Origin: Actinomycetota bacterium
Lineage (GTDB): Bacteria; Actinomycetota; Acidimicrobiia; Acidimicrobiales; Ilumatobacteraceae
Direction of reading: 5' to 3'
NCBI GenBank assembly: GCA_026393695.1
Contig: JAPKZR010000288.1
Coordinates: 1 to 43,158, forward strand
Length of the DNA: 43,158 bases
The translations under genes were made by a program, and so were the position numbers. Positions 10,117 to 24,232 of the stretch are shown here, piece by piece. Below the pieces are notes generated by a model, which was given only the letters and a program-made list of their open reading frames with translations, was not told the origin of the DNA and searched no databases. Every line of letters begins with the position of its first letter. Within the stretch, counting starts at the first letter, position 1.

Positions 10117-10213
10117 TTGGCGCCGAGCTAGCGATCTGGTTACTCGGATATGCAAGGCTCAGAGCGGGTTCGCCTCGTTGATGTCGCGAACCAATCGATC
10201 ATCAGGGGGATCC

Positions 10214-11812
10214 ATGAGCCACTTCACGCGGCCCGCATTCGCATTCGTATTCGCTGTAGCGCTCTTGGGTGTCTCGTCGTGTTCATCGTCGGGATCAAGC
10301 GGTGGCGACACCGCGGCGTCCGCCACGGTTGCATCAACCTCGGCTGCTACTGACGCGCCCACCACAACCGTGGCGCGGCCCGCCTTCAAGCCCGACGCTG
10401 TCGGCGCAGCCACGGTCACGGGCCCCATCACTGGCGGCAAGGGTGGCATCGTCATGGGAATCGGCGGACTCGATCTTGCGTCGGTTGGCTACACCCAAGA
10501 AGAGTTCTTCTTGTCGGGTGACGCTGCGTCGTATTCGTCGGCGGCGCCGTTGAGCAGCGATGGCAACTGGACGATTACCGAAGGCACGCCAGCGCCGTTC
10601 ACAACACGCATCGTTGTCCGTCGTCCCATCGACGCTACGAAGTTCAACGGCACCGTTGCGGTCGAGTGGCTCAACGTGACCGCCGGATTCGACAACGCCC
10701 CTGACTGGAGCTTCGCTCACACAGAGCTCATTCGAGATGGTTGGACATGGGTCGGCGTGTCGGCACAGTCGGTGGGCATCGTTGGGGGCGGCAACGCGCT
10801 CGGCGCAGCGCTGGCGTTGAAGGCTGCCGACCCTGATCGCTACGCAGCGCTCAGCCACCCTGGCGATAGCTACTCGTACGACATGTTCAGCCAAGCCGGA
10901 GCTGTGGTGCGTACCCAAGCAGCGCAAGTGCTCGGCGGCCTCGAACCCAAGCACGTGATCGCATTCGGAGAGTCGCAGTCGGCGTTCCGCTTGAACACCT
11001 ACGTGAATGCCGTTGCGCCGATTGCCAATGTGTACGACGGGTTCCTCATCCACAGCCGCGGGGCTGTTGGCGCTGCGCTGTCGCAGACACCGCTGCCTGA
11101 TATCGCTGCACCAGACCCAACGCTCATCCGCACCGATCTCGGCGTGCCGGTTCTCAACTTCTTGTCAGAGACCGACATGCTCGGCGACCGTCTTGGCTAT
11201 GGCCGCGCCGAACAGCCCGACACCGATTTTGTTCGCGCATGGGAAGTTCCTGGAACGGCGCACGCCGATGTGTACAGCCTTGGTATTGGTGACACTGACA
11301 ATGGCTCAGGTGCTGGCGATGCCGCACTGTTCGCTGCGCTGCTCACGCCGAACAGTTCGATCTACGGCGGTGTGATCAAGTGCGATCTCGGTATTAATGC
11401 CGGCCCGCACACCTATGTGCTGCGCAGCGCAATCGCTGCGTTGAACGCTTGGGTTTCGATCCGCGTGACGCCGCCGGCCATGCCGCGTATCCCGCTCAAC
11501 GCCGACAAGACCAGCGTTGTGCTTGACCCTGCCGGCAATGCAACGGGTGGCATCCGCATGCCGCAGGTCGATGTGCCGCTTGCCAAGCTCTCGGGCTCCG
11601 GTCAGACCGGCACCAGCTTTTGCGGATTGTTCGGCACTACGGTTCCGTTCTCTGCGGCGCAGCTTGCTGCGGCCTATCCCGATCACGCCACGTTCGTGAG
11701 CAAGTGGAATGCCGCTGTCGATAGCGCCGTTGCGTCGGGCGCACTGCTCGATGCCGACGCCAAGAATCTGAAGGCCGTCGCCGAAGTATCCACCATCGGC
11801 AACCCCGGCTGA
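10214..11812 (+). CDS. Secreted lipoprotein, possible alpha/beta hydrolase-domain protein
   Basis: MSHFTRPAFAFVFAVALLGVSSC gives a lipobox. AGGGGGA lies just upstream of ATG 10214. FGESQSAF is a possible nucleophile elbow. An in-frame alternative start is ATG 10181. The track ORF start at 9869 overlaps the previous gene and is rejected. Confidence 0.65.
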   Translation: MSHFTRPAFAFVFAVALLGVSSCSSSGSSGGDTAASATVASTSAATDAPTTTVARPAFKPDAVGAATVTGPITGGKGGIVMGIGGLDLASVGYTQEEFFLSGDAASYSSAAPLSSDGNWTITEGTPAPFTTRIVVRRPIDATKFNGTVAVEWLNVTAGFDNAPDWSFAHTELIRDGWTWVGVSAQSVGIVGGGNALGAALALKAADPDRYAALSHPGDSYSYDMFSQAGAVVRTQAAQVLGGLEPKHVIAFGESQSAFRLNTYVNAVAPIANVYDGFLIHSRGAVGAALSQTPLPDIAAPDPTLIRTDLGVPVLNFLSETDMLGDRLGYGRAEQPDTDFVRAWEVPGTAHADVYSLGIGDTDNGSGAGDAALFAALLTPNSSIYGGVIKCDLGINAGPHTYVLRSAIAALNAWVSIRVTPPAMPRIPLNADKTSVVLDPAGNATGGIRMPQVDVPLAKLSGSGQTGTSFCGLFGTTVPFSAAQLAAAYPDHATFVSKWNAAVDSAVASGALLDADAKNLKAVAEVSTIGNPG

Positions 11813-12014: not shown

Positions 12015-13277
12015 TCAGCCGGCGGCCGGTCGCTGCACGATGAGCTCGAGATTTTTGAGACCTCGCAAGATATAGCTGGGCTCGTATTCGAACGTGTTGC
12101 CTGGCGCAAACTCGACATGCTCGAGCCGATCAGAGAGTGCTTCGAATCCGATGCGCGCCTCAAGCCTGGACAACGGTGCGCCAATGCAAAAGTGCGCCCC
12201 GAAACCGAATGCAATGTGTTGCGACAGGTTGTCGCGCTCGGGGTTGAAGGCTTCGGCCTCGGCGAACGTTCGCTCGTCGCGATTTGCCGCCCCAAACATC
12301 ACCCACAGCCGAGTGCCCTTCTTCAGCGGCACGCCCTCGAGTTCGGTGTCTCGGGTGACAACGCGAAACAGGCCCTGGTTGGGGCTGGCCATGCGCAGCA
12401 CTTCTTCGATGACTGCTGGGATCAAGGCGGGCTCGCTCACGATTCGCTGCCACCACTGAGGATGCTCGAGCAACAACTTCATGCCTTCGCTAAACAACTT
12501 GGTTGTGGTCTCGTTGCCGGCGACCATCAGTTGTTGCACGATCGAGAACATCTCGGCATCGGTGAGATTGCGGGTGGTTCCGTCGGCGTCTTCAAACGTG
12601 GCGCTCACGAGATCGGTGGTGAAGTCGTCTTGCGGATTCTGGCGTCGGTCGGCGAATTGGGCGATGAAGAACAACTGCGACTCGAGTACTCCACGAGCGG
12701 CTTCGACAACTCGCTCTGGTGTGAGCCGGGTGCCCAGCGAAGCCACTGCATCGTCGGACCATCGTTTGATGTCGGCCTCTCGCTCGGCAGGCACGTTGAG
12801 CATGTGTGAGATCACCCGCACGGGCAGCGGAATTGCAAACGCATTCATGAAGTCGACGGTGCCATCGGTGGGGAAGGCATTGATCAGTTCGTCGGCGAGC
12901 TCACGGATTCGCGGCGCAAGTCCCTGAATGCGACGCACGTTGAAAGCGCCAGCCACGGTCTTGCGGTAGCGGGTGTGTGTGGGTGGGTCAAGGGTGAGCA
13001 TGGTGTCGACGCGCGGTACGCCCTGACGTGACAATGCAACCAACTCGGCCATGAGCTCGGGCGGGGGAGCGGTGCCCGCATTCGACGATTTCGATGAGAA
13101 GGTTTCGGTGTCTCGCAGCACGACGCGCATGGTCTCTAACCGAGACACGAAGTACATGCCGGTGGGCTCGTGGCGAAACAACGGGCCGTGTTCGCGCAGC
13201 GCTGCGTAGTGCGGAAACGGGCACTGTTGAATCTCGCGATTCATCGGGTCGTACGTACTGAGATCGATCGTGGCCAT
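12015..13277 (-). CDS. Cytochrome P450
   Basis: Heme loop FGFGAHFCIGAPL and EXXR (EEVLRMASP). GAAGGGAAG lies upstream of ATG 13277 (MATIDLS...). The track start at 13334 is less likely. Confidence 0.92.
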   Translation of the reverse strand: MATIDLSTYDPMNREIQQCPFPHYAALREHGPLFRHEPTGMYFVSRLETMRVVLRDTETFSSKSSNAGTAPPPELMAELVALSRQGVPRVDTMLTLDPPTHTRYRKTVAGAFNVRRIQGLAPRIRELADELINAFPTDGTVDFMNAFAIPLPVRVISHMLNVPAEREADIKRWSDDAVASLGTRLTPERVVEAARGVLESQLFFIAQFADRRQNPQDDFTTDLVSATFEDADGTTRNLTDAEMFSIVQQLMVAGNETTTKLFSEGMKLLLEHPQWWQRIVSEPALIPAVIEEVLRMASPNQGLFRVVTRDTELEGVPLKKGTRLWVMFGAANRDERTFAEAEAFNPERDNLSQHIAFGFGAHFCIGAPLSRLEARIGFEALSDRLEHVEFAPGNTFEYEPSYILRGLKNLELIVQRPAAG

Positions 13278-13335: not shown

Positions 13336-14277
13336 GTGTTCGGTACCGTTCGGGCGATGTCTTCGCCGGCCCTTCGTATTCACCCGTTCGGTAGCGAGCT
13401 GGTGGTGCAAACCCAATCTGAACAAGTGATTGCGGCCATTCAGCGCGGCCTCGGTCGCTATCCCGAAGGCCTCGCAATCGGCGGGTCGCTGCATCTCAAT
13501 GTGAGCGTGCACGAAGCTGGTGCCGGTGATCCAGGGTGGCCTGTGGTCGCCGCCGACATCAACGCCGAGCAACTCACGGTGCGTTGCGGCACATCCCACG
13601 CTGTCGTCAACTTTGCCGCTGGCATCGGTGAGATCTCGCTGGCCGAATCGTTGTTACCCATCGACGATGCCGTTCGGTTGTTTGTCGAGTCGGCCTTCAC
13701 CTCGATGCACGTTCATCACGAGCGACTCGTTGCGGTGCACAGCGCACTGGTCTCGCGTAACGGAATTGGTTTGATGTTGCGTGGCCCGTCGGGTGCAGGC
13801 AAGAGCACGCTCACCTATTCCTGCCTTCGTCGCGGCATGGGAATCACCAGCGACGATTGGTTGTACGCCGCGGTGCAACAGCCTGCAGGTGTCTTCGCTG
13901 GCTACCCATGGCGAATGCTGATGACCCAAGACGCTGCCGCTCGTTTCGATGAGATTCGTGACATCGATCCAGTGCCCCACACCTCTGAAGAGGGCTGCAA
14001 GATTGCGATCTATCCACCCGAGTTGCAGCAGGTGGCATTGCAAGAGGTGCACGCCGTTGTGTTGCTCGATCCCGACACCGAGTTCTCGCTCGCACCGGTC
14101 AGTCAGAGCGAAGCGACCGAGCGGTTCTGGGCGGCGTCGCTGCCCACCGAGCGCGAGCACATCTCGTCGCAATGGGCCGACGGATTGTTAGACCGACCCA
14201 CCTATGTGTTGCGGCGGGGACTCTCGCCATTGGCAGCAGCCGAGGCTCTCGACGATCTAGCCGCAAGCTTGCGGTAG
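13336..14277 (+). CDS. HPr kinase-like (HprK-related) P-loop kinase
   Basis: LMLRGPSGAGKSTLTYSCLRRG carries a Walker A in the position and context typical of the HprK C-terminal domain fold, and the ~300-aa size fits. Start is GTG 13336, or alternatively ATG 13357. Confidence 0.7.
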   Translation: MFGTVRAMSSPALRIHPFGSELVVQTQSEQVIAAIQRGLGRYPEGLAIGGSLHLNVSVHEAGAGDPGWPVVAADINAEQLTVRCGTSHAVVNFAAGIGEISLAESLLPIDDAVRLFVESAFTSMHVHHERLVAVHSALVSRNGIGLMLRGPSGAGKSTLTYSCLRRGMGITSDDWLYAAVQQPAGVFAGYPWRMLMTQDAAARFDEIRDIDPVPHTSEEGCKIAIYPPELQQVALQEVHAVVLLDPDTEFSLAPVSQSEATERFWAASLPTEREHISSQWADGLLDRPTYVLRRGLSPLAAAEALDDLAASLR

Positions 14278-15377
14278 AGGGTCTCGAAGGCTGCTGCAGT
14301 TGCGTCGGCGTCGTGTAGCGACGCCCACGCGTGCGCTCGTTGGGCGATGGCGGCGCGTTCGGTGAGGTCGTTCAAGAGTCGCAACACGCCCGCAGCAACC
14401 GCTTCGGCATCGTGCTCTACCGCCGCTGCTGCGGGCTCGGGTAACGACGCGAAATCTGACACGTGTCCCACCCGGGTACCCACTGTGCACACCCCGCTCA
14501 ACGCAGCTTCGACAACTGCAAGTGGACCGGCATCGTGCCATGACGTGTTGAGATGAAGTGCGGCTGATTGGTACAACTCGCGCAGGTCGTCGGGCTGCAC
14601 GAAACCAGCGAACCTCACTGCATGCGCAATGCCCAACGACTGGGCGAGCATCACGTGTTCGCCATGCATCGTGTCCACTCCGGCCAGTGTCAGCGTGGCG
14701 TCGGGTCGAGCTGCGAGCACGAGTGCGAAGGCGTGCAGCGCGAGGTATTGATCCTTCACAGCGTTGAGGCTGGCGACCTGAACAATGTGTGCGCCCGCAG
14801 CAGGTGTGCCCGCCGGACGAAACCGCGCCCGATCTGCGCCGAGCGGGATGAGTTCGTCGATGCGTGCGCCTGCTGCAGCGGCGTGCGCTTGCATCCATTC
14901 GGTGGCTGCGGTCGTGGCGGTGGGTAGGCGCAATGCCGCGCGGGCCAACAATTTGCCGCCGCGCGTCAGGCCGCCGCCATAGCCAATTTCGGGGATCGCG
15001 GCGAGTTCGCCGCCGCACAACGTGACCACCGACGGCACCCAAAAGCGACGACCGATCACCGCGGCAGCGAGGCCAGTAACACCAGCCCACAATCCATGCA
15101 CAACGTCGGGCCGGTTTGCCCGACCACCGCGGCCCGCAATGCGTACTGCTGTGCGTATGGCGCGCAACACATCGCTACGGCTGTGATTGCCGATGGGAAC
15201 GTTGATGACATCGCAGCCGTACAACGTCCATTCGCCCGGCTCAGGATTGTGGCCAATCGCAATGATGGTGACTGTATTCCCGGCAGCGAGTCGCTGAACC
15301 AAATCGTGGATGAAGGGAATCACCCGATCAGATCCGGGTTGATCCACGCCTCCCGGCACCACCAGCACTACGCGCAC
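14202..15377 (-). CDS. GT4-family (GT-B fold) glycosyltransferase
   Basis: MRVVLVVPGG... N-terminus and a C-terminal half with ...LHLNTSWHDAGPLAVVEAALSGVCTVGTRVG..., which resembles the GT4 E-X7-E region. GTG start at 15377. The 3' end overlaps the convergent kinase gene by 76 nt. Confidence 0.8.
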   Translation of the reverse strand: MRVVLVVPGGVDQPGSDRVIPFIHDLVQRLAAGNTVTIIAIGHNPEPGEWTLYGCDVINVPIGNHSRSDVLRAIRTAVRIAGRGGRANRPDVVHGLWAGVTGLAAAVIGRRFWVPSVVTLCGGELAAIPEIGYGGGLTRGGKLLARAALRLPTATTAATEWMQAHAAAAGARIDELIPLGADRARFRPAGTPAAGAHIVQVASLNAVKDQYLALHAFALVLAARPDATLTLAGVDTMHGEHVMLAQSLGIAHAVRFAGFVQPDDLRELYQSAALHLNTSWHDAGPLAVVEAALSGVCTVGTRVGHVSDFASLPEPAAAAVEHDAEAVAAGVLRLLNDLTERAAIAQRAHAWASLHDADATAAAFETLYRKLAARSSRASAAANGESPRRNT

Positions 15378-15415
15378 GGCACAGTCTGGCAGAGCCGAGA
15401 CGCTCGCCCTGTGAG

Positions 15416-15444
15416 GTGACTAGTGTTCGCCCATCACTAGTGAC
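15416..15444. promoter_or_regulatory. Twin ACTAGTG motifs (15419-15425, 15436-15442), also readable as the 9/10 inverted repeat GTGACTAGTG / CACTAGTGAC
   Basis: Direct reading. Two SpeI-type palindromes lie 17 nt apart in the divergent region between the GT4 gene (minus strand) and the nucleotidyltransferase operon (plus strand). Confidence 0.4.
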
Positions 15445-15588
15445 CTTCGCCGCCGACAACTTGAGTTACTGCAGGCCGTTCTCGCTCGTCTCGAGGGCGA
15501 ACCTGCGCGCCTCGAACCGTGGTCGCTTGATCAGGTTCAACTCACCGGACTCGCTACTGGACTGACAGCGCTTGCAGGCTCACTCGAC

Positions 15589-16482
15589 TTGTTCGCCGAA
15601 GCTTCGCCCGATGTCGTGGCGTTCGTTGCCGAGCAACGTGAGCAAGTGACCGAGCGAGTACGTCGGTTCAGCGAGTTGCTGCCCACGGTGATGGCTGCGC
15701 TGAAGCAGCACGCAGTGCCCGCGGTTGCGGTGAAGGGCGCAGCGCTGCTGCAGGGCGTGTGGGGCATTGAGGGCACGAGGCCCATGGCCGACATCGATCT
15801 CATCGTGCCCGTCGGGCAGCGGTCGCAAGCCGCCGCTGCGCTCATCGCAGGTGGGCTTCGGGCAATCGAGTCAACCGACTACGAAGACACGTTTCTTTCG
15901 TGGGGCAACGGTGATGTGGGCCGCACTGACGGCGAGTCGGCCGATCACAATGGTCGCGTCGAAGTGCACCCTGGTTGGATCGAGTTTCTGCATGGCTACA
16001 CAGTGCGCGGATTCGCTGTTGAGTCGATGCCGTTCGACCATGAAGCGCTTACGGTTCACGTGTTGGGTCACCTCGCCTCAACTGTGGTGCGCGCCGAGGT
16101 TCGATCCGTAAACGTGGTCGATGTGTGGTGGTGCGCACGGCGTCCCATCGATTGGCAGCGCGCGAGCCAACTGATGGCGCTCACCGATCCGCGACTCACC
16201 GCCCCCGGACTCTGGATGGTGCGGCAACTGATGCCTGGGTTGTTGCCCGACGCAGTGGTGTCACGCGAGATCGCTCGGCTGCCACGAGCGGCGCGTCATC
16301 TACTCGGCACCGCGTCGCCAGCAGACATGTTGCGCGACCCCGACACGCGCACGTCGTTCCGCTGGCGGCAGGCCTTTACGCAGTCGGTTCGCGAGCGCAT
16401 TGCGGTTGTTGACCAGATGGTGTGGCCCCATGGCTCGCGCAGCGTTGCTGCGGCGGCTCGCCGCCTCGTCGGACGACGGTGA
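15589..16482 (+). CDS. NTP_transf_5-like uncharacterised nucleotidyltransferase
   Basis: ...AVPAVAVKGAALLQGVWGIEGTRPMADIDLIVP... is the KG..L......R...DiDlLv signature of this family. The coordinate given is the first TTG. The frame stays open and protein-like back to 15424 with no ATG/GTG/TTG (see findings). Confidence 0.7.
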   Translation: MFAEASPDVVAFVAEQREQVTERVRRFSELLPTVMAALKQHAVPAVAVKGAALLQGVWGIEGTRPMADIDLIVPVGQRSQAAAALIAGGLRAIESTDYEDTFLSWGNGDVGRTDGESADHNGRVEVHPGWIEFLHGYTVRGFAVESMPFDHEALTVHVLGHLASTVVRAEVRSVNVVDVWWCARRPIDWQRASQLMALTDPRLTAPGLWMVRQLMPGLLPDAVVSREIARLPRAARHLLGTASPADMLRDPDTRTSFRWRQAFTQSVRERIAVVDQMVWPHGSRSVAAAARRLVGRR

Positions 16483-16484
16483 CG

Positions 16485-17570
16485 ATGCGCGTTGCAATCG
16501 TGATGCCTCCGGCAACCAGCGCCGATCCGGAGCAAACGCTCGATGGCTGGCCGTCGGTGGTGCACCAAGCGAAAGCGCTGCACGAGCACGCCGGTCTCGA
16601 CGTGATGGTGGCGTGTCGCACCACGCTGGCGTCGGCGGTTGCTCAGCGCGATGGTGTCACGTATCGGTTCATGAACACCGACACTGCCTTGGTTCGTGAC
16701 GTTGCGCGGTGGGGCCCCGATGTTGTGCACGTGCATGGGTTCGGATTCACGCGGCTCAACCTTCGGCTAGCGAGGGCGCTTCATCGCAAGGCGGCGATTG
16801 TGCTGCAACATCACGGGGAGACGCCCGGCCGTCGGCGCACGGTGTTGGCCCATCGCTTAGTGCGCCGCTCTGTGCAGGGCTACCTCTTCACCGGCGCAAC
16901 GTTCGGGCAGGCGCAGCCGTTCATTGATCGCGGGATGATTCGTGAAACTGCTGCGTGCTACGAGGTGCTTGAGGCAGCGAGCACGTTGCCCAGCGACCCC
17001 ACAGGTTCCTTGGCGGCCGTGCAGCTAGCGGGCAGTCCTGCTGTGCTCTGGGTCGGTCGACTGATCGAATCGAAGGACCCGCTCACCGCCATCACTGCAT
17101 TTGTACATGCGGCTACGAGTGAACTTCGCGATGCGCATCTGCATCTGCTCGCCACGGATCGATCACTTGAGCCACAGGTGCGTGCCGCCATTGCTGCGCT
17201 TGGAGATCTCAGGGCGCGCGTGCATGTTCATGATCCGGTCAGCGCTAGTGAGATGCAGAGTTGGTATCAGGCAGCCGACATCGTTCTGTCTACGAGTTGG
17301 CGCGAAGGATCCGGCTACGCACTGATCGAAGCGATCGCCGAAGGTTGCGTACCGGTGGTTACGGGAATCCCATCGCATCGCGCGATCGTGGGTGAGTTGA
17401 TCGGCACCTTCGTCCCGGGAGATGCGCCTGCGGCAGCGCAACTCATGGGTATCGCCTCGCGAATGAGCCGCGAGCTCGTGGCCAAGCACGCCAACCAAAC
17501 GCTCACGTGGCAAGCAGTCGCTCAGCAGCTTGAGCACGCCTACAAATTGGCCGTCTACTCACGCGCCTAG
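16485..17570 (+). CDS. GT4-family glycosyltransferase
   Basis: MRVAIVMPP... N-terminus and STSWREGSGYALIEAIAEGCVPVVTGIP (E-X7-E region). ATG 16485 lies 2 nt after the upstream stop. Confidence 0.85.
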   Translation: MRVAIVMPPATSADPEQTLDGWPSVVHQAKALHEHAGLDVMVACRTTLASAVAQRDGVTYRFMNTDTALVRDVARWGPDVVHVHGFGFTRLNLRLARALHRKAAIVLQHHGETPGRRRTVLAHRLVRRSVQGYLFTGATFGQAQPFIDRGMIRETAACYEVLEAASTLPSDPTGSLAAVQLAGSPAVLWVGRLIESKDPLTAITAFVHAATSELRDAHLHLLATDRSLEPQVRAAIAALGDLRARVHVHDPVSASEMQSWYQAADIVLSTSWREGSGYALIEAIAEGCVPVVTGIPSHRAIVGELIGTFVPGDAPAAAQLMGIASRMSRELVAKHANQTLTWQAVAQQLEHAYKLAVYSRA

Positions 17571-17597
17571 CGCCGCTCGCGGCTATTGTCGGCCGCT

Positions 17598-19133
17598 ATG
17601 CGTGATGTGTTGCTGGCTCATTCTTACTACCTCAACCTCGACGCGAAGCAGAAGTCAAAGATGCGGCCGTACCCGCCTCTGGCCACGTTGTATGCCGCAT
17701 CAGTGCTGCGCGACCGGGGCTACGACGTGGCCGTGTTCGACGCCATGCTCGCCGCCGACGAAGCCGATTTTGAGGCTGCGCTCGAGCTCCATCAGCCTCG
17801 CGTGGTTGTGCTGTTCGAAGACAACTTCAACTTCTTGTCGAAGATGTGTTTGGCCCGCATGCGCGAGGCTGCCATCACCATGTTGGGCATGGCGATGGCG
17901 CGGGGCTGCAAGGTCGCGATGTCGGGTGCCGATGTCACCGACCACCCCGAGGTGTACCTCGAGGCCGGCGCCGAGGTGTGCCTTCTCGGCGAAGGCGAGC
18001 ACGCCGTGGCCGAGATTGTCGATCGTTGGCTCGGGCGATCAATGGCCGTAGAACAGGTGGCCGGTTCGGCCGTCTTGGTCGACGGCGAAATCGCTAGCAC
18101 TGGCCACCGCTCGATCGAGCGCCACCCCGATGTGTTCGGCTTGCCAGCGCGAGACCTCATCGACATCGGTGCCTACCGCGACGCATGGCTTTCGCATCAT
18201 GGCGAGTTCTCACTCAACATGGTGTCGACGCGAGGTTGCCCGTATTCGTGTAACTGGTGCGCCAAGCCCATCTGGGGCCAGCGCTACTCGATGCGCAGTC
18301 CCGTGGCGGTTGCCGACGAGATGACGCAACTCAAGTTTCAACATGCGCCCGATCACGTGTGGTTCGCCGACGACATTTTTGGCCTGCGCAGCGACTGGCT
18401 TGCCGAGTTCGCCGATCACATCGAATCCACGGGTGGGGCAGTGCCGTTCACCATTCAGTCGCGCTGCGACTTGATGAACGACGTTGCCGTCGATGCGTTG
18501 GCTCGCTCGAAGTGCAAAGAGGTGTGGCTCGGCGCCGAAAGCGGTAGCCAGCGCGTGCTCGATGCGATGGACAAAGAAATCACCGTCGATGAGATTCGCG
18601 GCGCCCGCCGCCGTCTTGGCGAACACGGCGTTCGTGCGTGCTTCTTCATTCAGTTCGGCTACCCGGGCGAGACATGGGAAGACATCTGCACCACCATCGA
18701 TCTCGTTGCCGAACTCTTGCCCGATGACATCGGGGTCAGCGTGAGCTACCCGTTGCCCGGCACAAAGTTTTACGAGATGGTCAAATCTGATCTCACCGAT
18801 CACGCCAACTGGCAAGACTCCGGCGACCTCGCAATGATCTTCGCTGGCACGTACTCCACCGGCTTTTATCGCGCCCTGCATCACTGCCTGCACGACGACC
18901 TCGACCTTCGCCGCCGCGAGGCTGGGCTCAGTCGAGCGCCGCACCCGCAACTCAGCGAACTTGGTCTCGATGAGCACCGCGAGCGAGTCTCTACCGCGTG
19001 GGCTGCGCTGCGCGAGCGTGAGCCCGGCGAACGCAATCCGAACCCAACTCGCTTGCGTATTCCAGTAGCGGCCGAGGCGGTTTCAATCACCCCTGCCGCG
19101 GTCGAAGTCACGCTGAACGGCAACCACGCATGA
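17598..19133 (+). CDS. B12-binding-domain radical SAM enzyme (class B)
   Basis: The N-terminal Rossmann-like cobalamin-binding region is followed by TRGCPYSCNWC (CxxxCxxC). The track start TTG 17586 is possible, but ATG 17598 (MRDVLLAHSYY) is preferred. Confidence 0.88.
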   Translation: MRDVLLAHSYYLNLDAKQKSKMRPYPPLATLYAASVLRDRGYDVAVFDAMLAADEADFEAALELHQPRVVVLFEDNFNFLSKMCLARMREAAITMLGMAMARGCKVAMSGADVTDHPEVYLEAGAEVCLLGEGEHAVAEIVDRWLGRSMAVEQVAGSAVLVDGEIASTGHRSIERHPDVFGLPARDLIDIGAYRDAWLSHHGEFSLNMVSTRGCPYSCNWCAKPIWGQRYSMRSPVAVADEMTQLKFQHAPDHVWFADDIFGLRSDWLAEFADHIESTGGAVPFTIQSRCDLMNDVAVDALARSKCKEVWLGAESGSQRVLDAMDKEITVDEIRGARRRLGEHGVRACFFIQFGYPGETWEDICTTIDLVAELLPDDIGVSVSYPLPGTKFYEMVKSDLTDHANWQDSGDLAMIFAGTYSTGFYRALHHCLHDDLDLRRREAGLSRAPHPQLSELGLDEHRERVSTAWAALREREPGERNPNPTRLRIPVAAEAVSITPAAVEVTLNGNHA

Positions 19134-19966
19134 CCCTTTCAATCTCCGATCAGTTGGCAGAAACGGCTGCCGCGTTCGACAGTGTGGCGCCAACCTACGA
19201 CGGCCCGCAGGGCAATAACCCGCTCATCCAACGCATGCGCGACATCGTGTGGCAGCGGATCGAAGGGCTACTCAAGGGCCAGTCGACGCTCATCGATATT
19301 GGTTGCGGCACCGGCATCGATGCGCAACATTTCGCGCAGCTCGGCCACCATGTGTTCGCTACCGATTGGTCACCCGAGATGGTCGAGCGCGCGGGCGCTC
19401 GCGCCAACTGCGAGCCAGGTCAAATCACGGCGCTACGTGTTGGCGCTCAAGAGTTCGATCGCCTTGCGTCCGAGTTTAAGCTCGGCCCTGACACGATCGA
19501 TCTTTCGTACTCAAACTTTGGCCCGCTCAACTGTGTCCCCGACCTCGGGCACACCGCAGCATCGCTTGCTGCCATCACCCGTCCGGGTGGCTACGCAGTG
19601 TTCACCGTGATCGGTCGATACTGCCCGTGGGAAGTGGCCCACTACGTTCGCAAGCGCCGGTTCACCCGAGCCAAGGTGCGTTTCGAGCGTGAGTCGACGC
19701 CCGTCGGCATGAATGGACACACCATCTGGACTCGTTACTTCACGCCTCGCGAGTTCGCTCGTGAGTGGATCGGCGACGCCGATCAGTGGCAGGTCGAGTA
19801 CTACGAATCGCTGTCACTGTTTGTGCCGCCGCCCTATCTCGACAAGGTGGGCGAGAAGTTTCCCAAAGTGTTCGCTCGATTGGTTTCGCTCGACTTTGTA
19901 ACAGCGCGGTGGCCGCTCTTTCGCGGCATGGGCGATCACTTCATGCTCGTGATGCGCCGCCGCTAG
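19130..19966 (+). CDS. Class I SAM-dependent methyltransferase
   Basis: LIDIGCGTGIDAQHFAQLGHHVFATDWSPEMV carries motif I and the post-I acidic residue. The ATGA overlap with the radical SAM stop implies translational coupling. Confidence 0.88.
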   Translation: MTLSISDQLAETAAAFDSVAPTYDGPQGNNPLIQRMRDIVWQRIEGLLKGQSTLIDIGCGTGIDAQHFAQLGHHVFATDWSPEMVERAGARANCEPGQITALRVGAQEFDRLASEFKLGPDTIDLSYSNFGPLNCVPDLGHTAASLAAITRPGGYAVFTVIGRYCPWEVAHYVRKRRFTRAKVRFERESTPVGMNGHTIWTRYFTPREFAREWIGDADQWQVEYYESLSLFVPPPYLDKVGEKFPKVFARLVSLDFVTARWPLFRGMGDHFMLVMRRR

Positions 19967-20047: not shown

Positions 20048-23000
20048 TTACCTCCTGATGAGCACGCTCGACGCTGTACTGCCGCCGCGTGACGCAACCA
20101 CGTTGATGTTCGCATTCTGTGGAACGGTTGAACCCTTGGCAGTGAATGTCCAAGCGCCAAGGGCGTCAACGACTGCGGTGCCGATGAGCGTTCCGGCGCC
20201 AGGTACGTTTCCGGTGCGAACCGTGATGGTGTTGGCTAATGGAAAGCTTGCGGTGCCAGCGGCGGTCCACTGATTCTTCGTCGTGCGGAATTCGGTGCCA
20301 GCGGTGATTGTGACGGATCCAGCACTGGCGGTCACGGTTACATCGGCTGTCGAGGTCACGGTGCCACGGTTCGAAACGGTGACTCGGAACGACAGGTCCT
20401 TGAACTGTGCTGGCATGGTGAATGTGGGTCGTGCGGTGTCGGCTCCGGTGAGCACCACTGGAGTGCCGGTGAGTTGGGTCCATGCGAATGTGGTGGCGTT
20501 GCTTGAAGCCGATGCATCAAGCGTGACCACGCTCGACTGGTTGGCCGCAATCGGGGAAACAGCCTTCGCTACAGGAGCAGGGATCACCACGACGAAACCA
20601 GCGCCGGTGCCGGTGCCGTTGGGCGACAAGATGGTCACGTAGCCGGACGTGGCGTGTACCGGAACTGTGGCTGTGATCGTCGTGTCGTCCACCACGGTGG
20701 CTGCCACGATGGCGCCGTTGAAGCTCACCTGGGTAGCGCCAAGGAATCCGGTACCGGTGATCGTGACGAGAGTCCCAACCTCGCCGGACTCGGGGAGGAT
20801 GGACGTGACGTCGGCCAACGGAATCGCCACTGCGTCAGCAATTGTGGTGGTAGGTGCTGGCACGGTGACCGTGAATTGGCTCGGCGCCGCGACGTCTCCA
20901 TTTGGTGTGAGCACCTTGACATCGACAGTGCCCTCAAGTGATCCGACGGGAACGTTTACGGTGATGGTCGAGTCGTCAACAACCACGAATGAAGCGCTGG
21001 CCGAAATGCTTCCGAAGAGCACATCGGTGGCTGCGGTGAGGTGCGTACCAGTGATCGTGACGGCTTGTCCGACCTCGCCCGACGATACGTCGAGGCTGGA
21101 GACGGTTGGGGTCAGCGGGTTGTGGAGCACGTTGAATGGTGTTCCCGAACTCACGACTACGTCTGAAGCGACCGAGTTGATCGACGTGGAGTGAGCGATG
21201 GTGATCACGATGTCGCGGCCGCCCTCAGGGGCAAGCTTTGGCACCTGCACCTCGAGGCGAGTTGCGCTGATCACCTGGAACATTGCGTCGACGCCGCCAA
21301 TGGTCACCGTGGTGGCCTTATCGAGACCAAGGCCGCCGACATGAACGGAGCTGCCAGCGAGGCCGCCGATTGGGTCAAAACCCAGCAATGCAGGGGCGGT
21401 CTGGTCGAGCGCAGGTGTTGGTGTGATGCCCTGCGAAACCGCCGAGGCAGTCGGCAGATCGAGCAGCGATGAATCGCCAGCAAACGTTGTGGCATCGCCA
21501 TTCGGAATGAAGCTCAGGATTCGATCTGCGGCAGAAGATAACGGTGCGTTGCTGTAGACCGATGTGCCGATCGGGCCCGTGGGAACTCCGCCGGTGGCAG
21601 CGGCCGCAGCTGCAGCAATCGCCGCCAACATGCGTGGGTCGCTGTCTGAGTATGGAAATGGAGACAGTGGCTGTGGCGTTGCTTCGCAGCCTGTTGCTGT
21701 GCAGCCGCCTGGGCTGAGACGACGGTCAAGATTCCACGGGACTCCCTCAAAGGAGTACGGCATGTTGAAGGTGTCCAAGTTGAGTTCGAGGGCGTCTGGT
21801 AAGGCCATGCCGCCGAGGCTGATTCCGAGTGGGTTCAGATACTGGCCGTTTGTTGACTGAGCGCCATTGATGTCGATCGAGAGCAACGGTGCGAGAGAAG
21901 ACTCGGTGGCCTTCTTGCGGGTCTTGAAATGGATCTCGTGAGGGATCGGGCTCAAGACAGCGAACTCGTCGGCTTGCGAATAGGTGGTAGGGCACACGGG
22001 TGCAAACAGAACTTCGTGATTGAGTTGGGCGCATGGCGACAAGTTCGCAGTAGCACGCTTGGCGAAGTCGCTGTCGTAACGAATCACGAACGTGCCAGCG
22101 ACAACACCAGCACAGCTCAGCGCTCGGCCAGCGGCCTCGCAGCCCTTCGACGAAGCGAGTGGAAGCTCGTGGCTCTTGTTTGCGGCCGGGTCATAGTGCA
22201 CGCTCCAGCCGAGCACGTCGGCAACGGCCTCAGTGGTGGCGCCGATGAACAGCGAGCGAGCGCGCTGCAGCTGGAAGCCAGGCATGTCGATGAAGGCTTC
22301 GGTCAGGTGCATGTAGTCGGGCTGATCGGCAACCGCGCTGGTCTGCAATCCGTACGAGATCTGCGAGCTGTGCGCCGAAAGGAAGCGAACGCCGCCAACG
22401 GATTCGTAGTTGCCGTCGACAAGGATCGAATCGCCGAGCAGCAGCGGCGCCATGCGGCGCGAGTCGGCGGCCACTCGAAGTGGCGCACCAGCCGAGTCAA
22501 GGCGGTTCGTGGTCGGGCAGAACGTGTCGCCTGCCCCCGTTGCATCGCTCGGCGTTGGCAGCGCAAATTCTGGCAGCGTGGCGCTGGCTTGGCGAACTGT
22601 TGTGCTGGGGATGCACAGCGGGTAGCCGGTGGAGAAGATGTTGGTGTAGTTGTCGATGTCGAGCGCAAAACGAGGGTCAGCGCTGCAGTTCCTTGAGCTG
22701 ATGGCACAGCCCTTGCCGCTTTGCACGGTGTGGCGTGCGGTGGGGTCGTTCAGACGAACCATGGTGCCAGTCGTTGAGTCGCCTGGCCGGCCATTCATCA
22801 TGAACCAGCCCTCGTGGTAGTTCACATAGGTCACGGTGCCGTCGACATCTTCGAGGCCTTTTTCGATGAGCGCGTCGCCGACGATGACGTCACCTGTCGA
22901 CACGCGGTTCGCGGCGAGCGTGGCGATCGAGCCCGTGCCGGTGAGGTTGCATCGGTCGGCCTTGGCGAGTCCGGTTTCGCCGGTCTTGAGGCACGCTGCC

Positions 23001-23290: not shown

Positions 23291-23648
23291 GATTGCTTGC
23301 TCGATTCGATCTGCTGGGCCTGGTGGGCATCGGGCCACACGGGATGCTCTCGAAAACAAGAACCCCCGGATGACGTCCCACCATTTAGAACCCGGACAGG
23401 ACATACGGCAATACGTCGTACGAAGTAGTCCCTTTGGCCGCGTACCAGGTCGGCAGCAACGCTGCGAACGGGTGGTGATGCCTTCGGCTTCGAGGGGCTA
23501 GCGCCGACACGATCGAAGTCGTCACCGCGCTCGGCGAGACGTGCCGTGCTCGTGCGGAGCAATACAGGCAACGATCTCAGCAATTGCTCAACGAGTCGGA
23601 TGTCTCCTCAGTGCTGAGCAAGATGACGAGCGTGCATGCATCGAGCAC

Positions 23649-23684
23649 GAGTCGTAGGCCGTATACGCGTTGGCCCTACGACTC
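23649..23684 (-). other. Strong hairpin in the spacer between the TM-protein gene and giant gene 1
   Basis: Plus strand reads GAGTCGTAGGCC-gtatacgcgtt-GGCCCTACGACTC, a 12-bp stem with one bulged C. There is no U-tract on either strand. Confidence 0.5.
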
Positions 23685-24226: not shown

Positions 24227-24232
24227 GGCGGC

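What the first reader, a model, noticed from the sequence alone, without database searches (positions are those of the whole stretch)
13336..19966. Orphan tailoring cluster: HprK-like kinase + 2x GT4 + NTP_transf_5 + B12-radical SAM + methyltransferase, with no recognisable core or substrate gene
Six genes sit in 6.6 kb. The last four are packed as an operon: a 2-nt gap at 16482/16485, then the rSAM/MT ATGA overlap at 19130-19133.

HPr-kinase homologues and NTP_transf_5 proteins are best known as accessory genes of lasso-peptide and related peptide-maturation loci, where the kinase phosphorylates a precursor Ser. They also occur in HprK-related systems linked to PqqD-like proteins.

Here there is no lasso cyclase (Asn-synthetase-like), no transglutaminase-like protease, no PqqD/RRE, no annotated precursor and no exporter. 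Instead the pair is combined with two glycosyltransferases, a class B radical SAM enzyme (typically C-methylation at unactivated carbon) and a class I methyltransferase. The predicted chemistry is phosphorylation or nucleotidylylation, glycosylation, and C- and O/N-methylation of an unidentified substrate. I do not recognise this combination as a described pathway.

Candidate substrates are a small unannotated peptide, a cell-envelope glycolipid or glycan, or the two adjacent giant secreted proteins.
Basis: partly seen in the sequence, partly recalled or inferred. Interest (0 to 1): 0.82.

Follow-up and report, generated by a model that had tools for sequence, protein, structure and literature searches.

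The report
Conserved surface-glycan tailoring gene cassette
Six neighbouring genes (an unusual kinase, a nucleotidyltransferase, two sugar-adding enzymes, a radical SAM enzyme and a methylase) form a real cassette that recurs in several bacterial phyla, nearly always beside cell-surface sugar-polymer genes, so it most likely builds or decorates an envelope glycan by chemistry not yet described, rather than maturing a peptide.

Summary

The genes are not adjacent by chance. Of 57 non-redundant Acidimicrobiia loci holding this kinase, 54 carry module B (GT4a, NTP_transf_5, GT4b, rSAM1, sometimes MT1), module A (rSAM2 and two methyltransferases), or both. The other three are truncated contigs. 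The same set recurs in Luteibacter, a Chloroflexi genome and an unnamed Gram-negative bin.

No annotated locus with this kinase clade has a lasso cyclase, PqqD/RRE, leader protease or room for a precursor gene. The recurring partners are envelope-glycan genes: an operonic LytR-CpsA-Psr ligase, Wzm/Wzt-like and PglK/MsbA-like ABC exporters, GT87 and DUF2142, rmlABD, Wza, Wzy_C, and pgsA-patA-pimA.

The two giant IPT/TIG proteins are a variable insertion, with 0, 1 or 2 copies in near-identical relatives.

Best reading (about 0.55): a cytoplasmic-face cassette that assembles and decorates an envelope glycoconjugate. The kinase and nucleotidyltransferase may install a phosphate-bridged substituent, as PsmK and PsmN do on a lasso peptide.

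The kinase clade fits no named family, and I found no paper describing this cassette. The substrate and exact chemistry remain unknown.

The parts
13336..14277 (+). P-loop kinase with an HprK/PEPCK fold, from an unnamed clade related to ScmC and HprK_rel_A/B. The true start is probably the ATG at 13357.
   Evidence: Hpr_kinase_C scores 28 bits, below cut-off. TIGR04352, TIGR04355 and TIGR04249 all score far below cut-off. The P-loop and SDDW motif are invariant in 17 homologues and align with the HprK/P catalytic core. The AF2 model has pLDDT 94. Its best structural matches are ATP-PEPCK over both domains, with HprK/P matching only the C-domain. This is the anchor gene of all 57 non-redundant loci.
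14202..15377 (-). GT4a, a GT-B family-4 glycosyltransferase. It is convergent with the kinase, and their 3' ends overlap by 76 nt.
   Evidence: Glycos_transf_1 68.7 bits plus Glyco_transf_4. The best curated hits are EPS or PEP-CTERM glycosyltransferases and MshA, all sub-threshold. Present in 31 of 32 complete module-B loci. Homologues at 32-38% identity, taken as orthologues, sit in the Luteibacter, Chloroflexi, L059, L061 and L062 cassettes.
15378..15432 (.). Short divergent intergenic region between GT4a and NTP_transf_5, the presumed promoter region for both transcription units.
   Evidence: Read directly from the sequence and conserved among close relatives. Its function as a promoter is inferred, not tested.
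15433..16482 (+). NTP_transf_5 (Pol-beta-type nucleotidyltransferase, PsmN-like). The frame is open from 15424. The first canonical start is the TTG at 15589, but conserved coding sequence lies upstream.
   Evidence: PF14907 scores 59.6-60.3 bits against a cut-off of 31.2. The DxD motif (MADIDL) is invariant. The upstream 55 codons are homologous to the N-termini of P0242 and P0245 and carry no ATG, GTG or TTG. The AF2 model has pLDDT 86, and its best fold matches are ANT(2'')-Ia and LnuA. Present in 31 of 32 complete loci.
16485..17570 (+). GT4b, the second family-4 glycosyltransferase. Its ATG lies 2 nt after the NTP5 stop codon.
   Evidence: Glyco_trans_1_4 52.9 bits and Glycos_transf_1 43 bits. 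The junction was read directly. Present in 29 of 32 complete loci. Homologues at 32-37% identity sit in the L062, L066 and L068 cassettes.
17586..19133 (+). rSAM1, a radical SAM enzyme with a B12-binding domain. The start is the TTG at 17586 or the ATG at 17598.
   Evidence: Radical_SAM 61.7 bits and B12-binding 36.5 bits. The CPYSCNWC cluster motif is present. The best solved relative is AprD4. The best curated hits are rSAM_ladder_B12, HpnJ and the MCR Gln C-methylase, all sub-threshold. It is the most conserved gene of the cassette: 58-76% identity within Acidimicrobiia, 61% to Chloroflexi and 51% to Luteibacter.
19130..19966 (+). MT1, a class I SAM methyltransferase coupled to rSAM1 by an ATGA overlap. 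It is an accessory member of the cassette.
   Evidence: Methyltransf_23/25/11. The overlap was read directly. Present in only 10 of 32 complete module-B loci.

Best explanation
The six genes are one copy of a widespread, uncharacterised cassette that works at the cytoplasmic face of the membrane. It assembles or decorates a cell-envelope glycoconjugate: a lipid-linked oligosaccharide, wall polysaccharide or lipoglycan.

Proposed steps:
1. GT4a and GT4b add hexoses from NDP-sugars to an acceptor.
2. The HprK/PEPCK-fold kinase phosphorylates a hydroxyl on that glycan or its acceptor.
3. The NTP_transf_5 enzyme then elaborates the phosphate into a phosphodiester-linked or nucleotidylylated substituent. 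This follows the only characterised kinase/NTP_transf_5 pair, PsmK and PsmN, where phosphorylation is followed by hexose addition.
4. rSAM1 performs a radical modification of a sugar carbon, either C-methylation or an AprD4/HpnJ-type deoxygenation or rearrangement.
5. MT1, where present, O-methylates.

In other lineages the product is exported by an adjacent ABC transporter and ligated to the wall by an LCP enzyme. This window's clade encodes those functions elsewhere, if at all.

Shown: gene content, catalytic motifs, co-conservation and the partner genes. Inferred: the substrate class, the order of steps, and the chemistry of every enzyme.
For: 1. Co-conservation. 54 of 57 non-redundant Acidimicrobiia kinase loci carry module B and/or module A, and the other three are truncated contigs. 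In 32 complete module-B loci, GT4a is present in 31, NTP5 in 31, GT4b in 29 and rSAM1 in 30.

2. The same gene set recurs across phyla.
- Luteibacter: MT, amidohydrolase, MT, rSAM2, GT4b, GT4a, NTP5, rSAM1, kinase, ABC exporter.
- Chloroflexi OHK40: one operon with GT4, NTP5, GT4, GT4, MBL, GT87, MT, kinase, DUF2142, rSAM1, rSAM2, MT2.

3. The recurring partners are envelope-glycan genes.
- A LytR_cpsA_psr gene lies directly downstream of module A in 6 of the 9 combined loci. In the one gene-called example it overlaps the upstream methyltransferase gene by 4 nt.
- An ABC-2 membrane protein plus an ATPase with a weak Wzt_C-like tail (E=0.002) is inserted between GT4b and rSAM1 in L050 and L053. 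L052 has the ATPase match only.
- An ABC_membrane+ABC_tran half-transporter lies downstream in about 17 loci and follows the kinase stop by 2 nt in Luteibacter-like loci.
- GT87 and DUF2142 membrane glycosyltransferases sit in the Chloroflexi operon.
- rmlD/A/B, a Wza-like exporter, GT9 and Wzy_C flank the cassette in L062.
- Wzy_C and an NTP5-MFS fusion occur in L067.
- Module-A-only loci are nested between pgsA-patA and a PimA-like GT4 in 4 MAGs, and a fifth, truncated contig shows pgsA-patA upstream of the kinase.

4. There are no RiPP hallmarks in the ten distinct gene-called, Pfam-annotated loci of this clade: no PqqD, Asn_synthase, transglutaminase or leader peptidase. Gene junctions inside the cassette leave no room for a precursor ORF.

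5. Enzyme-level hints point to carbohydrate substrates. The best fold matches of NTP5 are enzymes that nucleotidylylate sugar hydroxyls, ANT(2'')-Ia and LnuA. The best solved relative of rSAM1 is the sugar diol-dehydratase AprD4, and HpnJ is among its top curated hits. The kinase model resembles two-domain PEPCK, a small-molecule kinase, more extensively than HprK/P.

6. rSAM1 and rSAM2 are 61-72% identical between phyla, while the kinase is about 30%. This suggests an invariant small substrate such as a sugar.
Against: - Every characterised member of the HprK family phosphorylates a Ser on a protein or peptide. The only characterised kinase/NTP_transf_5 pair acts on a lasso peptide.
- No priming phosphoglycosyltransferase, flippase, polymerase, exporter or LCP lies near the cassette in this window. 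In this organism the glycan context is therefore inferred from relatives.
- The Wzt_C match is weak (E=0.002, below cut-off).
- ABC_membrane+ABC_tran half-transporters also export peptides.
- The fold matches for NTP5 are weak (E about 1e-3), and the PEPCK match has TM of only about 0.5.
- Guilt by association cannot identify the acceptor or any reaction.
- WS/DGAT, P450, PhyH and SDR neighbours would also fit a lipid or small-molecule product.
Confidence: 0.55

Rival explanations
1. The cassette carries out RiPP or protein Ser phospho-glycosylation, with the substrate gene encoded elsewhere. The kinase phosphorylates a Ser of a peptide or protein. NTP5 and the GT4s build a phosphate-linked glycan on it, as on pseudomycoidin. 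rSAM1 and MT1 methylate, and an ABC exporter secretes the product.
For: - HprK-family enzymes of known function act on protein or peptide Ser. PsmK and PsmN give phosphorylation followed by hexose addition.
- The kinase has weak similarity to ScmC of the SynChlorMet peptide cassette (and the precomputed PF27840 hits).
- ABC_membrane+ABC_tran exporters adjoin the cassette in many loci.
- B12-rSAM methylases are common in RiPP pathways. The RiPP-type rSAM models ApyD and rSAM_ocin_1 give sub-threshold hits.
Against: - None of the ten distinct annotated loci from three phyla has an RRE/PqqD, cyclase, leader protease or candidate precursor.
- The kinase from a real lasso locus (L060) is only 28% identical over a partial alignment.
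- The closest relatives fall below every named HprK_rel/ScmC model.
- The conserved partners are glycan genes: LCP, Wzm/Wzt-like, GT87, DUF2142, rml, Wza and Wzy_C.
- 61-72% identity of the rSAMs across phyla is unusual for enzymes acting on variable peptides.
Confidence: 0.2
2. The cassette is a cytoplasmic small-molecule or activated-sugar pathway. The kinase and NTP5 stand in for an anomeric sugar kinase and a sugar-1-phosphate nucleotidyltransferase. rSAM1 and MT1 modify the activated sugar. The GT4s transfer it to a small acceptor or to a cytoplasmic polymethylated polysaccharide, in the manner of MshA/BshA products or mycobacterial MGLP/MMP.
For: - The kinase model matches two-domain PEPCK, a small-molecule kinase.
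- NTP5 resembles enzymes that nucleotidylylate small-molecule sugars.
- The best solved GT4 relatives are MshA and BshA, which glycosylate small acceptors. GT4b also gives a SenB hit.
- No exporter lies in this window.
- The rSAMs are very highly conserved.
- WS/DGAT and other lipid genes adjoin the cassette in 14 loci.
Against: - Module-A-only loci have the kinase but neither NTP5 nor a cassette GT4, which does not fit an obligate kinase-to-NTase-to-GT chain.
- Exporters, LCP, GT-C enzymes and Wzy_C in relatives point to an extracytoplasmic end product.
- The GT4 similarities to MshA and BshA are weak (E about 1e-5) and confined to the generic C-terminal domain.
Confidence: 0.15
3. The cassette glycosylates the two adjacent giant secreted IPT/TIG proteins.
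For: They lie immediately downstream (20048-27625, minus strand). They carry signal peptides and Ser/Thr-rich segments.
Against: - The IPT/TIG genes are absent between MT1 and APH in L004 and L006, and single-copy in L005 and L007, although the cassettes are 92-98% identical. They are absent from all more distant loci.
- They are on the opposite strand.
- As Sec-type substrates they would be exported unfolded, away from cytoplasmic enzymes.
Confidence: 0.03
4. The six genes are adjacent by chance, or they form an anti-phage 'conflict' system, as the GT4-conflict Pfam hit on GT4b might suggest.
For: GT4b hits PF20706 (GT4-conflict) at 31.5 bits.
Against: - Co-conservation across dozens of loci and at least three phyla rules out chance.
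- PADLOC finds nothing apart from a generic methyltransferase match.
- The PF20706 hit is weaker than the general GT4 family hits on the same region of GT4b.
Confidence: 0.02

Closest known systems
PsmK/PsmN tailoring pair of the lasso peptide pseudomycoidin, and PadeK of paeninodin
   Same: An HprK-like P-loop kinase with catalytic DD is paired with an 'uncharacterised nucleotidyltransferase' carrying DxD. In pseudomycoidin, phosphorylation is followed by hexose addition (PMC6993621). PsmN, like the window's NTP5, models on ANT(2'').
   Different: There is no lasso cyclase, B1/B2 or precursor here. The kinase from a true lasso locus (L060) is only 28% identical over a partial alignment. The pair here is embedded with two GT4s and B12-rSAMs in glycan-type neighbourhoods.
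SynChlorMet cassette protein ScmC (TIGR04249 / PF27840) and HprK-related kinases A and B (TIGR04352, TIGR04355)
   Same: The same kinase superfamily. These are the best curated hits to the window kinase, and precomputed PF27840 hits occur on many homologues.
   Different: Scores are 17-33 bits against cut-offs of 125-200. The nearest relatives in a library of 1.84 billion proteins also fail all three models. By the NCBIfam description as I recall it, SCM cassettes have PqqD plus two SPASM rSAMs. None is present here.
ABC-transporter-dependent O-antigen pathway with a WbdD kinase-methyltransferase terminator (E. coli O9a). This comparison is from my own knowledge.
   Same: GT4 glycosyltransferases build a glycan on the cytoplasmic face. 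A kinase plus a methyltransferase modify it. Export is by Wzm/Wzt, whose C-terminal domain reads the modification. Three related loci carry a Wzt-like ATPase, and two of them also have the Wzm membrane partner, inside the cassette.
   Different: WbdD is a eukaryotic-like kinase fused to its methyltransferase, not an HprK/PEPCK-fold enzyme. The O9a pathway has no NTP_transf_5 and no radical SAM enzyme. The window itself has no Wzm/Wzt.
O-methyl phosphoramidate decoration of the Campylobacter jejuni capsule (Cj1415-Cj1422). This comparison is from my own knowledge.
   Same: The logic is similar: an unusual kinase, a nucleotidyltransferase, methyltransferases and transferases install a methylated phosphoryl substituent on a surface polysaccharide.
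   Different: The enzyme families are unrelated. No homology was detected here, and the capsule pathway has no B12-rSAM.
Actinobacterial PIM/lipomannan machinery (PgsA, PatA, PimA of GT4, PimE/MptC of GT87) and the polymethylated polysaccharides MGLP and MMP
   Same: GT4 enzymes, SAM methyltransferases and GT87 occur in the same neighbourhoods. Module-A-only loci are nested between pgsA-patA and a PimA-like GT4. GT87 sits in the Chloroflexi operon.
   Different: As far as I know, none of these pathways uses an HprK-like kinase, an NTP_transf_5 or a B12-rSAM. GT4a and GT4b are not close to PimA or ManT; only generic GT4 similarity was seen.
B12-domain radical SAM enzymes acting on sugars: AprD4 (apramycin C3' deoxygenation) and HpnJ (hopanoid cyclitol ether formation)
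   Same: AprD4 is the best solved relative of rSAM1 (6fd2, E=4.5e-18). HpnJ is among the top curated hits (E=1.4e-28). rSAM1 has the CxxxCxxC motif and the N-terminal B12-like domain.
   Different: All scores are far below the equivalog cut-offs. rSAM1 forms its own very large, highly conserved family; 8000 candidates scored E<=1e-20. Its reaction is unknown.

Membership tests
Lasso-peptide biosynthetic gene cluster | Asn-synthetase-like macrolactam synthetase (the C protein) | tested here: not met
   No Asn_synthase hit on any of the 31 window ORFs submitted to Pfam or in the ten distinct annotated related loci. By contrast, the lasso locus L060 has a 602-aa protein beginning MGSICGIY, read as AsnB-like from its N-terminus.
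Lasso-peptide biosynthetic gene cluster | RRE/PqqD-like B1 protein and transglutaminase-like B2 protease | tested here: not met
   No PF05402 (PqqD) or transglutaminase-core hits in the window or the annotated related loci (same calls).
Lasso-peptide biosynthetic gene cluster | Short precursor gene within the cluster | tested here: not met
   Junctions inside the cassette are overlaps or gaps of 2-27 nt. The only internal intergenic stretch (15378-15432) is too short. The 24-aa and 49-aa ORFs at 15416-15565 overlap the conserved NTP5 N-terminal coding region. No conserved small-ORF family lies outside real genes across 60 loci.
HPr kinase/phosphorylase family (PF07475, TIGR00679) | Walker-A P-loop GxSGxGKS followed by the catalytic (A/S)DD motif | tested here: met
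   GPSGAGKST and SDDW are invariant in 17 homologues. They align with 1ko7 and 1jb1 over 48 residues.
HPr kinase/phosphorylase family (PF07475, TIGR00679) | Whole-protein score above the curated family threshold | tested here: not met
   PF07475 scores 28.0 bits against a cut-off of 33.3. TIGR00679 scores 26.7 against 240.
HPr kinase/phosphorylase family (PF07475, TIGR00679) | Phosphorylates a Ser of HPr or of a peptide | not testable with these tools
   This needs a biochemical assay.
ScmC (TIGR04249), HprK_rel_A (TIGR04352) and HprK_rel_B (TIGR04355) | Score above the equivalog cut-off | tested here: not met
   Scores are 17.6 against 125, 32.5 against 200 and 32.0 against 200. The nearest relatives outside Acidimicrobiia also fail.
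NTP_transf_5 (PF14907) | Pfam gathering score reached, and the Pol-beta-type DxD metal-binding motif present | tested here: met
   59.6-60.3 bits against a cut-off of 31.2. D120 and D122 in MADIDL are invariant. The nucleotidyltransferase fold was recovered by Foldseek.
B12-binding (class B) radical SAM enzymes | CxxxCxxC cluster motif together with an N-terminal B12-binding-like domain | tested here: met
   CPYSCNWC is present. Radical_SAM scores 61.7 against 29.5 and B12-binding 36.5 against 32.1.
B12-binding (class B) radical SAM enzymes | Cobalamin-dependent methyl transfer | not testable with these tools
   The closest solved relative, AprD4, is, as I recall, a dehydratase that does not use cobalamin. 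The chemistry therefore cannot be assigned from sequence.
GT4 glycosyltransferases (GT-B, retaining) | Glycos_transf_1 C-terminal domain above threshold, with a GT4 N-terminal domain | tested here: met
   GT4a: 68.7 bits plus Glyco_transf_4 at 28.0, borderline against 28.5. GT4b: 52.9 and 43.0 bits, with a weak N-terminal domain hit.
ABC-transporter-dependent (Wzm/Wzt) glycan pathway | ABC-2 permease plus an ATPase with a Wzt_C domain in the locus | tested here: not met
   Absent from the window. The Wzt-like ATPase is inside the cassette in L050/L064, L052 and L053, and the Wzm permease matched in L050 and L053. The Wzt_C match is weak (E=0.002).
LCP-dependent wall glycopolymer pathway | LytR-CpsA-Psr ligase encoded with the biosynthetic genes | tested here: not met
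   Not among the window ORFs submitted to Pfam. Present directly downstream of module A in 6 of the 9 combined (A+B) loci.
Anti-phage defence systems (PADLOC) | Match to a defence-system protein model | tested here: not met
   No hits, apart from a generic methyltransferase match to mad2.

The most novel reading that the evidence does not exclude
The cassette defines a previously unrecognised way of modifying bacterial surface glycans, shared across phyla. A miniature PEPCK/HprK-fold kinase and a Pol-beta nucleotidyltransferase would together install a phosphodiester-bridged sugar or nucleotide. Two exceptionally conserved B12-domain radical SAM enzymes would then remodel it. If so, the kinase/NTP_transf_5 pair known from lasso peptides would be a borrowed glycan-chemistry module. 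The HprK superfamily would also gain its first non-protein substrate.
Probability: 0.35. Interest if true: 0.75.

Novelty: new variant of a known kind. Interest (0 to 1): 0.6.

Why it matters
If the reading is right, several points follow.
- A family of about 900 or more kinase clusters (at 50% identity) now labelled 'hypothetical' or 'HPr kinase' would move from peptide maturation to envelope-glycan chemistry.
- The enigmatic NTP_transf_5 (PsmN) family would gain a second, much broader biological context.
- Two very conserved radical SAM enzymes would be marked as probable sugar-modifying catalysts.
- It would point to an undescribed phosphate- and methyl-bearing surface polymer in Acidimicrobiia, which are abundant, largely uncultured freshwater and soil Actinobacteria with essentially unknown cell envelopes.
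- Cultured Luteibacter strains carry the full cassette, so the question can be tested genetically.

Tried and rejected
- Precursor peptide in the GT4a/NTP5 gap. The 24-aa and 49-aa ORFs at 15416-15565 lie on the conserved, open N-terminal coding frame of NTP5. They are not separate genes.
- De novo clustering of all ORFs of 40 aa or more from 60 loci. Beyond the real genes, nearly all 'conserved' small families were antisense or out-of-frame shadows of cassette genes. Greedy longest-ORF gene calling proved unreliable at this GC content, so I switched to tblastn with reference proteins and to pre-annotated contigs.
- IPT/TIG proteins as partners. Rejected on copy-number variation among near-identical relatives.
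- Defence-system reading, prompted by the GT4-conflict hit. PADLOC was negative.
- P450 as a 'P450-derived glycosyltransferase activator'. It keeps the heme-binding Cys (FGFGAHFCIG), scores below that model's cut-off, and is conserved only in the closest clade.
- Riboswitch or other RNA regulator. Rfam and tRNA scans of the whole window found nothing.
- Literature. Searches for PF14907, NTP_transf_5, SynChlorMet, HprK-related, and for kinase/rSAM/GT/LCP combinations, found only the lasso-peptide papers and one passing mention in a phosphonate survey.
- Assigning the chemistry of rSAM1 or the donor sugars of the GT4s from curated models. Every hit is far below its cut-off.
- Fold search of NTP5. 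Only weak matches to ANT(2'') and LnuA, and no LicD- or fukutin-type match.

Full report
OBSERVATION

Pfam reproduces every domain call:
- Kinase, 13336-14277(+): Hpr_kinase_C at 28 bits, below the 33.3 cut-off.
- GT4a, 14202-15377(-): family-4 glycosyltransferase.
- NTP_transf_5, ending at 16482(+): 59.6 bits against a cut-off of 31.2.
- GT4b, 16485-17570(+): a second family-4 glycosyltransferase.
- rSAM1, 17586-19133(+): Radical_SAM plus B12-binding, both above cut-off.
- MT1, 19130-19966(+): class I methyltransferase.

The packing details were read from the sequence. TGA at 16480-16482 is followed by ATG at 16485. TAG at 17568-17570 is followed by TTG 17586 or ATG 17598. The ATGA overlap lies at 19130-19133.

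NCBIfam gives no equivalog for any of the six. All hits are far below their cut-offs.

GPSGAGKST and SDDW are invariant in 17 homologues at 40-79% identity. They align with the P-loop and ADD core of HprK/P structures. rSAM1 carries CPYSCNWC. NTP5 carries an invariant MADIDL motif.

The rest of the window holds no polysaccharide, RiPP or export genes. It encodes EF-G, a fatty-acid hydroxylase, a flavin monooxygenase, an aldo-keto reductase, an Abhydrolase_10 protein, two P450s, an APH-family kinase, DUF6204, a ModABC-like importer and an acyl-CoA synthetase. There are no Rfam or tRNA hits.

SOURCE AND CO-CONSERVATION

The kinase has more than 120 relatives, almost all from Acidimicrobiia MAGs. 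A scan of one genome per species returned 59 loci. Four of them (L004-L007) are 92-98% identical, which places the window in an Acidimicrobiaceae-like lineage.

Mapping reference proteins onto all loci with tblastn shows two modules around the kinase:
- Module B: kinase, then GT4a on the opposite strand, then NTP5, GT4b, rSAM1 and sometimes MT1. This is the window's arrangement.
- Module A: rSAM2 (only 33-36% identical to rSAM1), MT2 and a zinc-ribbon methyltransferase.

Of 57 non-redundant loci, 32 carry module B, 13 carry module A and 9 carry both. The 3 with neither are truncated contigs.

In the 32 module-B loci with at least 6.5 kb of downstream sequence, GT4a is present in 31, NTP5 in 31, GT4b in 29, rSAM1 in 30 and MT1 in only 10. 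The methyltransferase is an accessory member.

THE SAME SET IN OTHER PHYLA

- Luteibacter-type contigs encode MT, amidohydrolase, MT, rSAM2, GT4b and GT4a on one strand. NTP5 and rSAM1 lie on the other. The kinase follows, and an ABC_membrane+ABC_tran exporter starts 2 nt after its stop codon, followed by GGDEF/EAL genes.
- A Chloroflexi genome (OHK40) has one co-directional operon: GT4, NTP5, GT4, GT4, a metallo-beta-lactamase-fold protein, GT87, MT, kinase, DUF2142, rSAM1, rSAM2, MT2.
- rSAM1 is 61% identical between the window and Chloroflexi and 51% identical to Luteibacter. rSAM2 is 72% identical between Chloroflexi and an Acidimicrobiales MAG. The kinases are only about 30% identical.
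- The rSAM1 family is very large. All 8000 scored candidates had E<=1e-20.
- A kinase profile finds 7404 representative clusters at E<=1e-3 and 929 at E<=1e-10. The nearest of these still fail the HprK_rel_A, HprK_rel_B and ScmC models. This is an unnamed clade of the superfamily.

WHAT THE PARTNER GENES SAY

None of the ten distinct gene-called, Pfam-annotated loci of this clade contains PqqD, an Asn-synthetase-like cyclase, a transglutaminase-like protease or a leader peptidase. Junctions inside the cassette leave no room for a precursor gene.

The one distant hit that is a real lasso locus is L060, from a Bacteroidales MAG. It encodes an AsnB-like protein, an HprK kinase, a sulfotransferase-like protein, a PqqD-like protein and a B2-like protein, read from their N-terminal sequences. 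Its kinase is only 28% identical over a partial alignment.

The recurring partners are envelope-glycan genes:
- A LytR-CpsA-Psr gene lies directly downstream of module A in 6 of the 9 combined loci. In the one gene-called example it overlaps the upstream methyltransferase gene by 4 nt.
- An ABC-2 permease and an ATPase with a weak Wzt_C-like tail are inserted between GT4b and rSAM1 in L050 and L053. L052 has the ATPase match only.
- A PglK/MsbA-type half-transporter lies convergently downstream in about 17 loci.
- GT87 and DUF2142 membrane glycosyltransferases sit in the Chloroflexi operon.
- rmlD, rmlA, rmlB, a Wza-like exporter, GT9 and Wzy_C flank the cassette in L062.
- Wzy_C and an NTP5-MFS fusion occur in L067.
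- In four MAGs, module-A-only loci are nested between thrS-HIT-pgsA-patA and a PimA-like GT4, the actinobacterial phosphatidylinositol-mannoside operon. A fifth, truncated contig shows pgsA-patA upstream of the kinase.

Less specific recurrent neighbours are a WS/DGAT acyltransferase (14 loci), a 232-aa protein with no Pfam hit (8 loci), and oxidative enzymes that differ by clade. The window's clade has a P450 with an intact heme Cys. Module-A-only loci have PhyH and an SDR.

THE GIANT IPT/TIG PROTEINS

The two proteins are 60% identical paralogues with signal peptides. They are not conserved partners. Between MT1 and the APH gene there are 0 copies in L004 and L006, 1 copy in L005 and L007, and 2 copies in the window. 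None occurs in more distant loci.

STRUCTURE

The kinase model is confident, with pLDDT 94. Foldseek ranks ATP-dependent PEP carboxykinases first, aligned over both domains (E=8e-9, TM about 0.5). HprK/P matches only the C-terminal domain. The protein thus looks like a miniature two-domain member of the PEPCK/HprK superfamily. This is compatible with a small or carbohydrate substrate bound in an interdomain cleft, but does not prove it.

The NTP5 model has pLDDT 86. It gives only weak matches, led by ANT(2'')-Ia and LnuA, which nucleotidylylate sugar hydroxyls. The authors of the pseudomycoidin paper reported the same templates for PsmN.

The best solved relative of rSAM1 is AprD4, a sugar diol-dehydratase. 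Its top curated hits include HpnJ and a ladderane-associated enzyme. C-methylation is therefore only one possibility.

MECHANISM

My best reading is that the cassette acts at the cytoplasmic face of the membrane on an envelope glycoconjugate.
1. The GT4s add sugars.
2. The kinase phosphorylates a hydroxyl.
3. NTP5 converts that phosphate into a phosphodiester-linked or nucleotidylylated substituent, by analogy with PsmK and PsmN.
4. rSAM1 remodels a sugar carbon.
5. MT1, where present, O-methylates.

Export and wall ligation are encoded next to the cassette in some lineages and elsewhere, or not at all, in the window's clade.

Gene content, catalytic motifs, co-conservation and partner genes are shown. 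The substrate class is inferred from association. Every reaction is inferred from family resemblance. I put this reading at about 0.55.

The main rival is phospho-glycosylation of a peptide or protein Ser, with the substrate encoded elsewhere. It keeps about 0.2, because that is the only chemistry demonstrated for this kinase superfamily. A cytoplasmic small-molecule or activated-sugar pathway keeps about 0.15. It draws on the PEPCK-like fold, the weak MshA/BshA-like GT4 hits and the absence of an exporter in this window. Module-A-only loci, which lack both the NTase and the cassette GT4s, argue against it. The IPT/TIG-substrate, chance-adjacency and defence readings are essentially excluded.

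COMPARISON WITH KNOWN SYSTEMS

The cassette works most like two known kinds of system. One is the phospho-methyl capping and ABC export of O-antigens such as E. coli O9a. The other is phosphoryl decoration of capsules. It shares an enzyme pair with lasso-peptide tailoring.

It is a member of none of these. It fails every tested defining feature of a lasso cluster. It fails the curated thresholds of HprK/P, ScmC and HprK_rel_A/B. In this window it also lacks Wzm/Wzt and LCP. It does meet the definitions of NTP_transf_5, GT4 and B12-domain radical SAM at the single-protein level.

I found no paper describing this gene set.

VERDICT

This is a real, widely conserved and uncharacterised cassette. 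The 'orphan tailoring cluster' idea is partly right, but the likely target is an envelope glycan, not a peptide or the neighbouring giant proteins. I rate it a new variant of a known kind, a surface-glycan biosynthesis locus built from unprecedented enzyme types, with interest of about 0.6.

Noticed in passing
window 15424-15588: The NTP_transf_5 frame is open and conserved for 55 codons upstream of the first canonical start (TTG at 15589). This stretch is homologous to the N-termini of P0242 and P0245 and is modelled as confident helices, yet it contains no ATG, GTG or TTG. The close relative L006 has TTG where the window has CTG (15469). Initiation at a non-canonical codon (ATC at 15433 or CTG at 15469) or a 5'-shortened protein is implied.
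   Followed up: partly
window 20048-27625 (compare L004, L005, L006, L007): Two 60%-identical secreted IPT/TIG/PKD proteins of about 1120 aa lie here, with a 159-aa membrane-anchored ORF between them (23747-24226, minus strand). They form a copy-number-variable insertion between MT1 and the APH gene. Relatives with 92-98% identical cassettes carry 0, 1 or 2 copies.
   Followed up: partly
window 14202-14277, and the same junction in L001, L003, L063, L064, L065: The kinase and GT4a are convergent, and their 3' ends overlap by 28-120 nt in every gene-called Acidimicrobiia locus (76 nt in the window). This is an unusual conserved arrangement that could couple their expression through antisense effects.
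   Followed up: no
L068:10001-13076, L064:8552-9940, L066:6433-7869, compared with window 17586-19133: The two B12-domain radical SAM enzymes are far more conserved than the rest of the cassette. Between phyla, rSAM1 is 51-61% identical and rSAM2 is 72% identical, against about 30% for the kinase and 32-37% for the GT4s.
   Followed up: partly
L002/L025, L027, L041, L044, L051: Module-A-only loci (kinase, rSAM2, two methyltransferases, M20 peptidase, SDR, PhyH) are inserted between thrS-HIT-pgsA-patA and a PimA-like GT4. This is inside the conserved actinobacterial phosphatidylinositol-mannoside operon.
   Followed up: partly
window 13336-14277 (model mc12ffc7a34c0): The 313-aa kinase model aligns with ATP-dependent PEP carboxykinases of about 520 aa over both domains, better than with HprK/P. 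It looks like a minimal two-domain member of the PEPCK/HprK superfamily.
   Followed up: partly
proteins P0372-P0377, P0379, P0388 and others: Many relatives of the kinase are proteins of about 650-700 aa with two matched stretches. These appear to be tandem double-kinase fusions. Their genomic context could not be looked up.
   Followed up: no
L066:2500-5200 compared with L069:7221-7238: In one Luteibacter contig, a lower-GC block of about 2.7 kb encoding small membrane proteins is inserted between GT4a and NTP5. These two genes abut in the otherwise collinear L069.
   Followed up: no
L031-L035, L037, L038, L040, L042, L043, L056 (module B) and L002, L041, L044 (module A): A WS/DGAT acyltransferase gene lies divergently just upstream of the kinase in 14 loci, whichever module follows. 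The kinase locus therefore appears positionally stable while the downstream module was exchanged.
   Followed up: no
L015, L016, L018, L020, L021, L030, L036, L039 (for example L039:9217-9915): A conserved 232-aa protein with no Pfam hit occurs in eight module-B loci, on the same strand as the kinase and immediately upstream of it in seven of them. Its sequence contains FHRDD and WHVVVH, which may be an HxD...H-type oxygenase signature.
   Followed up: no
window 12015-13277 (-): A cytochrome P450 with an intact FGFGAHFCIG heme loop lies divergent to the kinase, with only about 80 nt between the likely start codons. It is conserved only in the closest clade (5 loci). It may be a lineage-specific extra tailoring enzyme.
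   Followed up: partly
window 9222-10181 and 9869-11812: The longest-ORF calls overlap by about 300 nt upstream of the Abhydrolase_10 gene. The 319-aa ORF and its nested 278-aa version have no Pfam hit, so the start of one of the two genes is probably mis-set.
   Followed up: no
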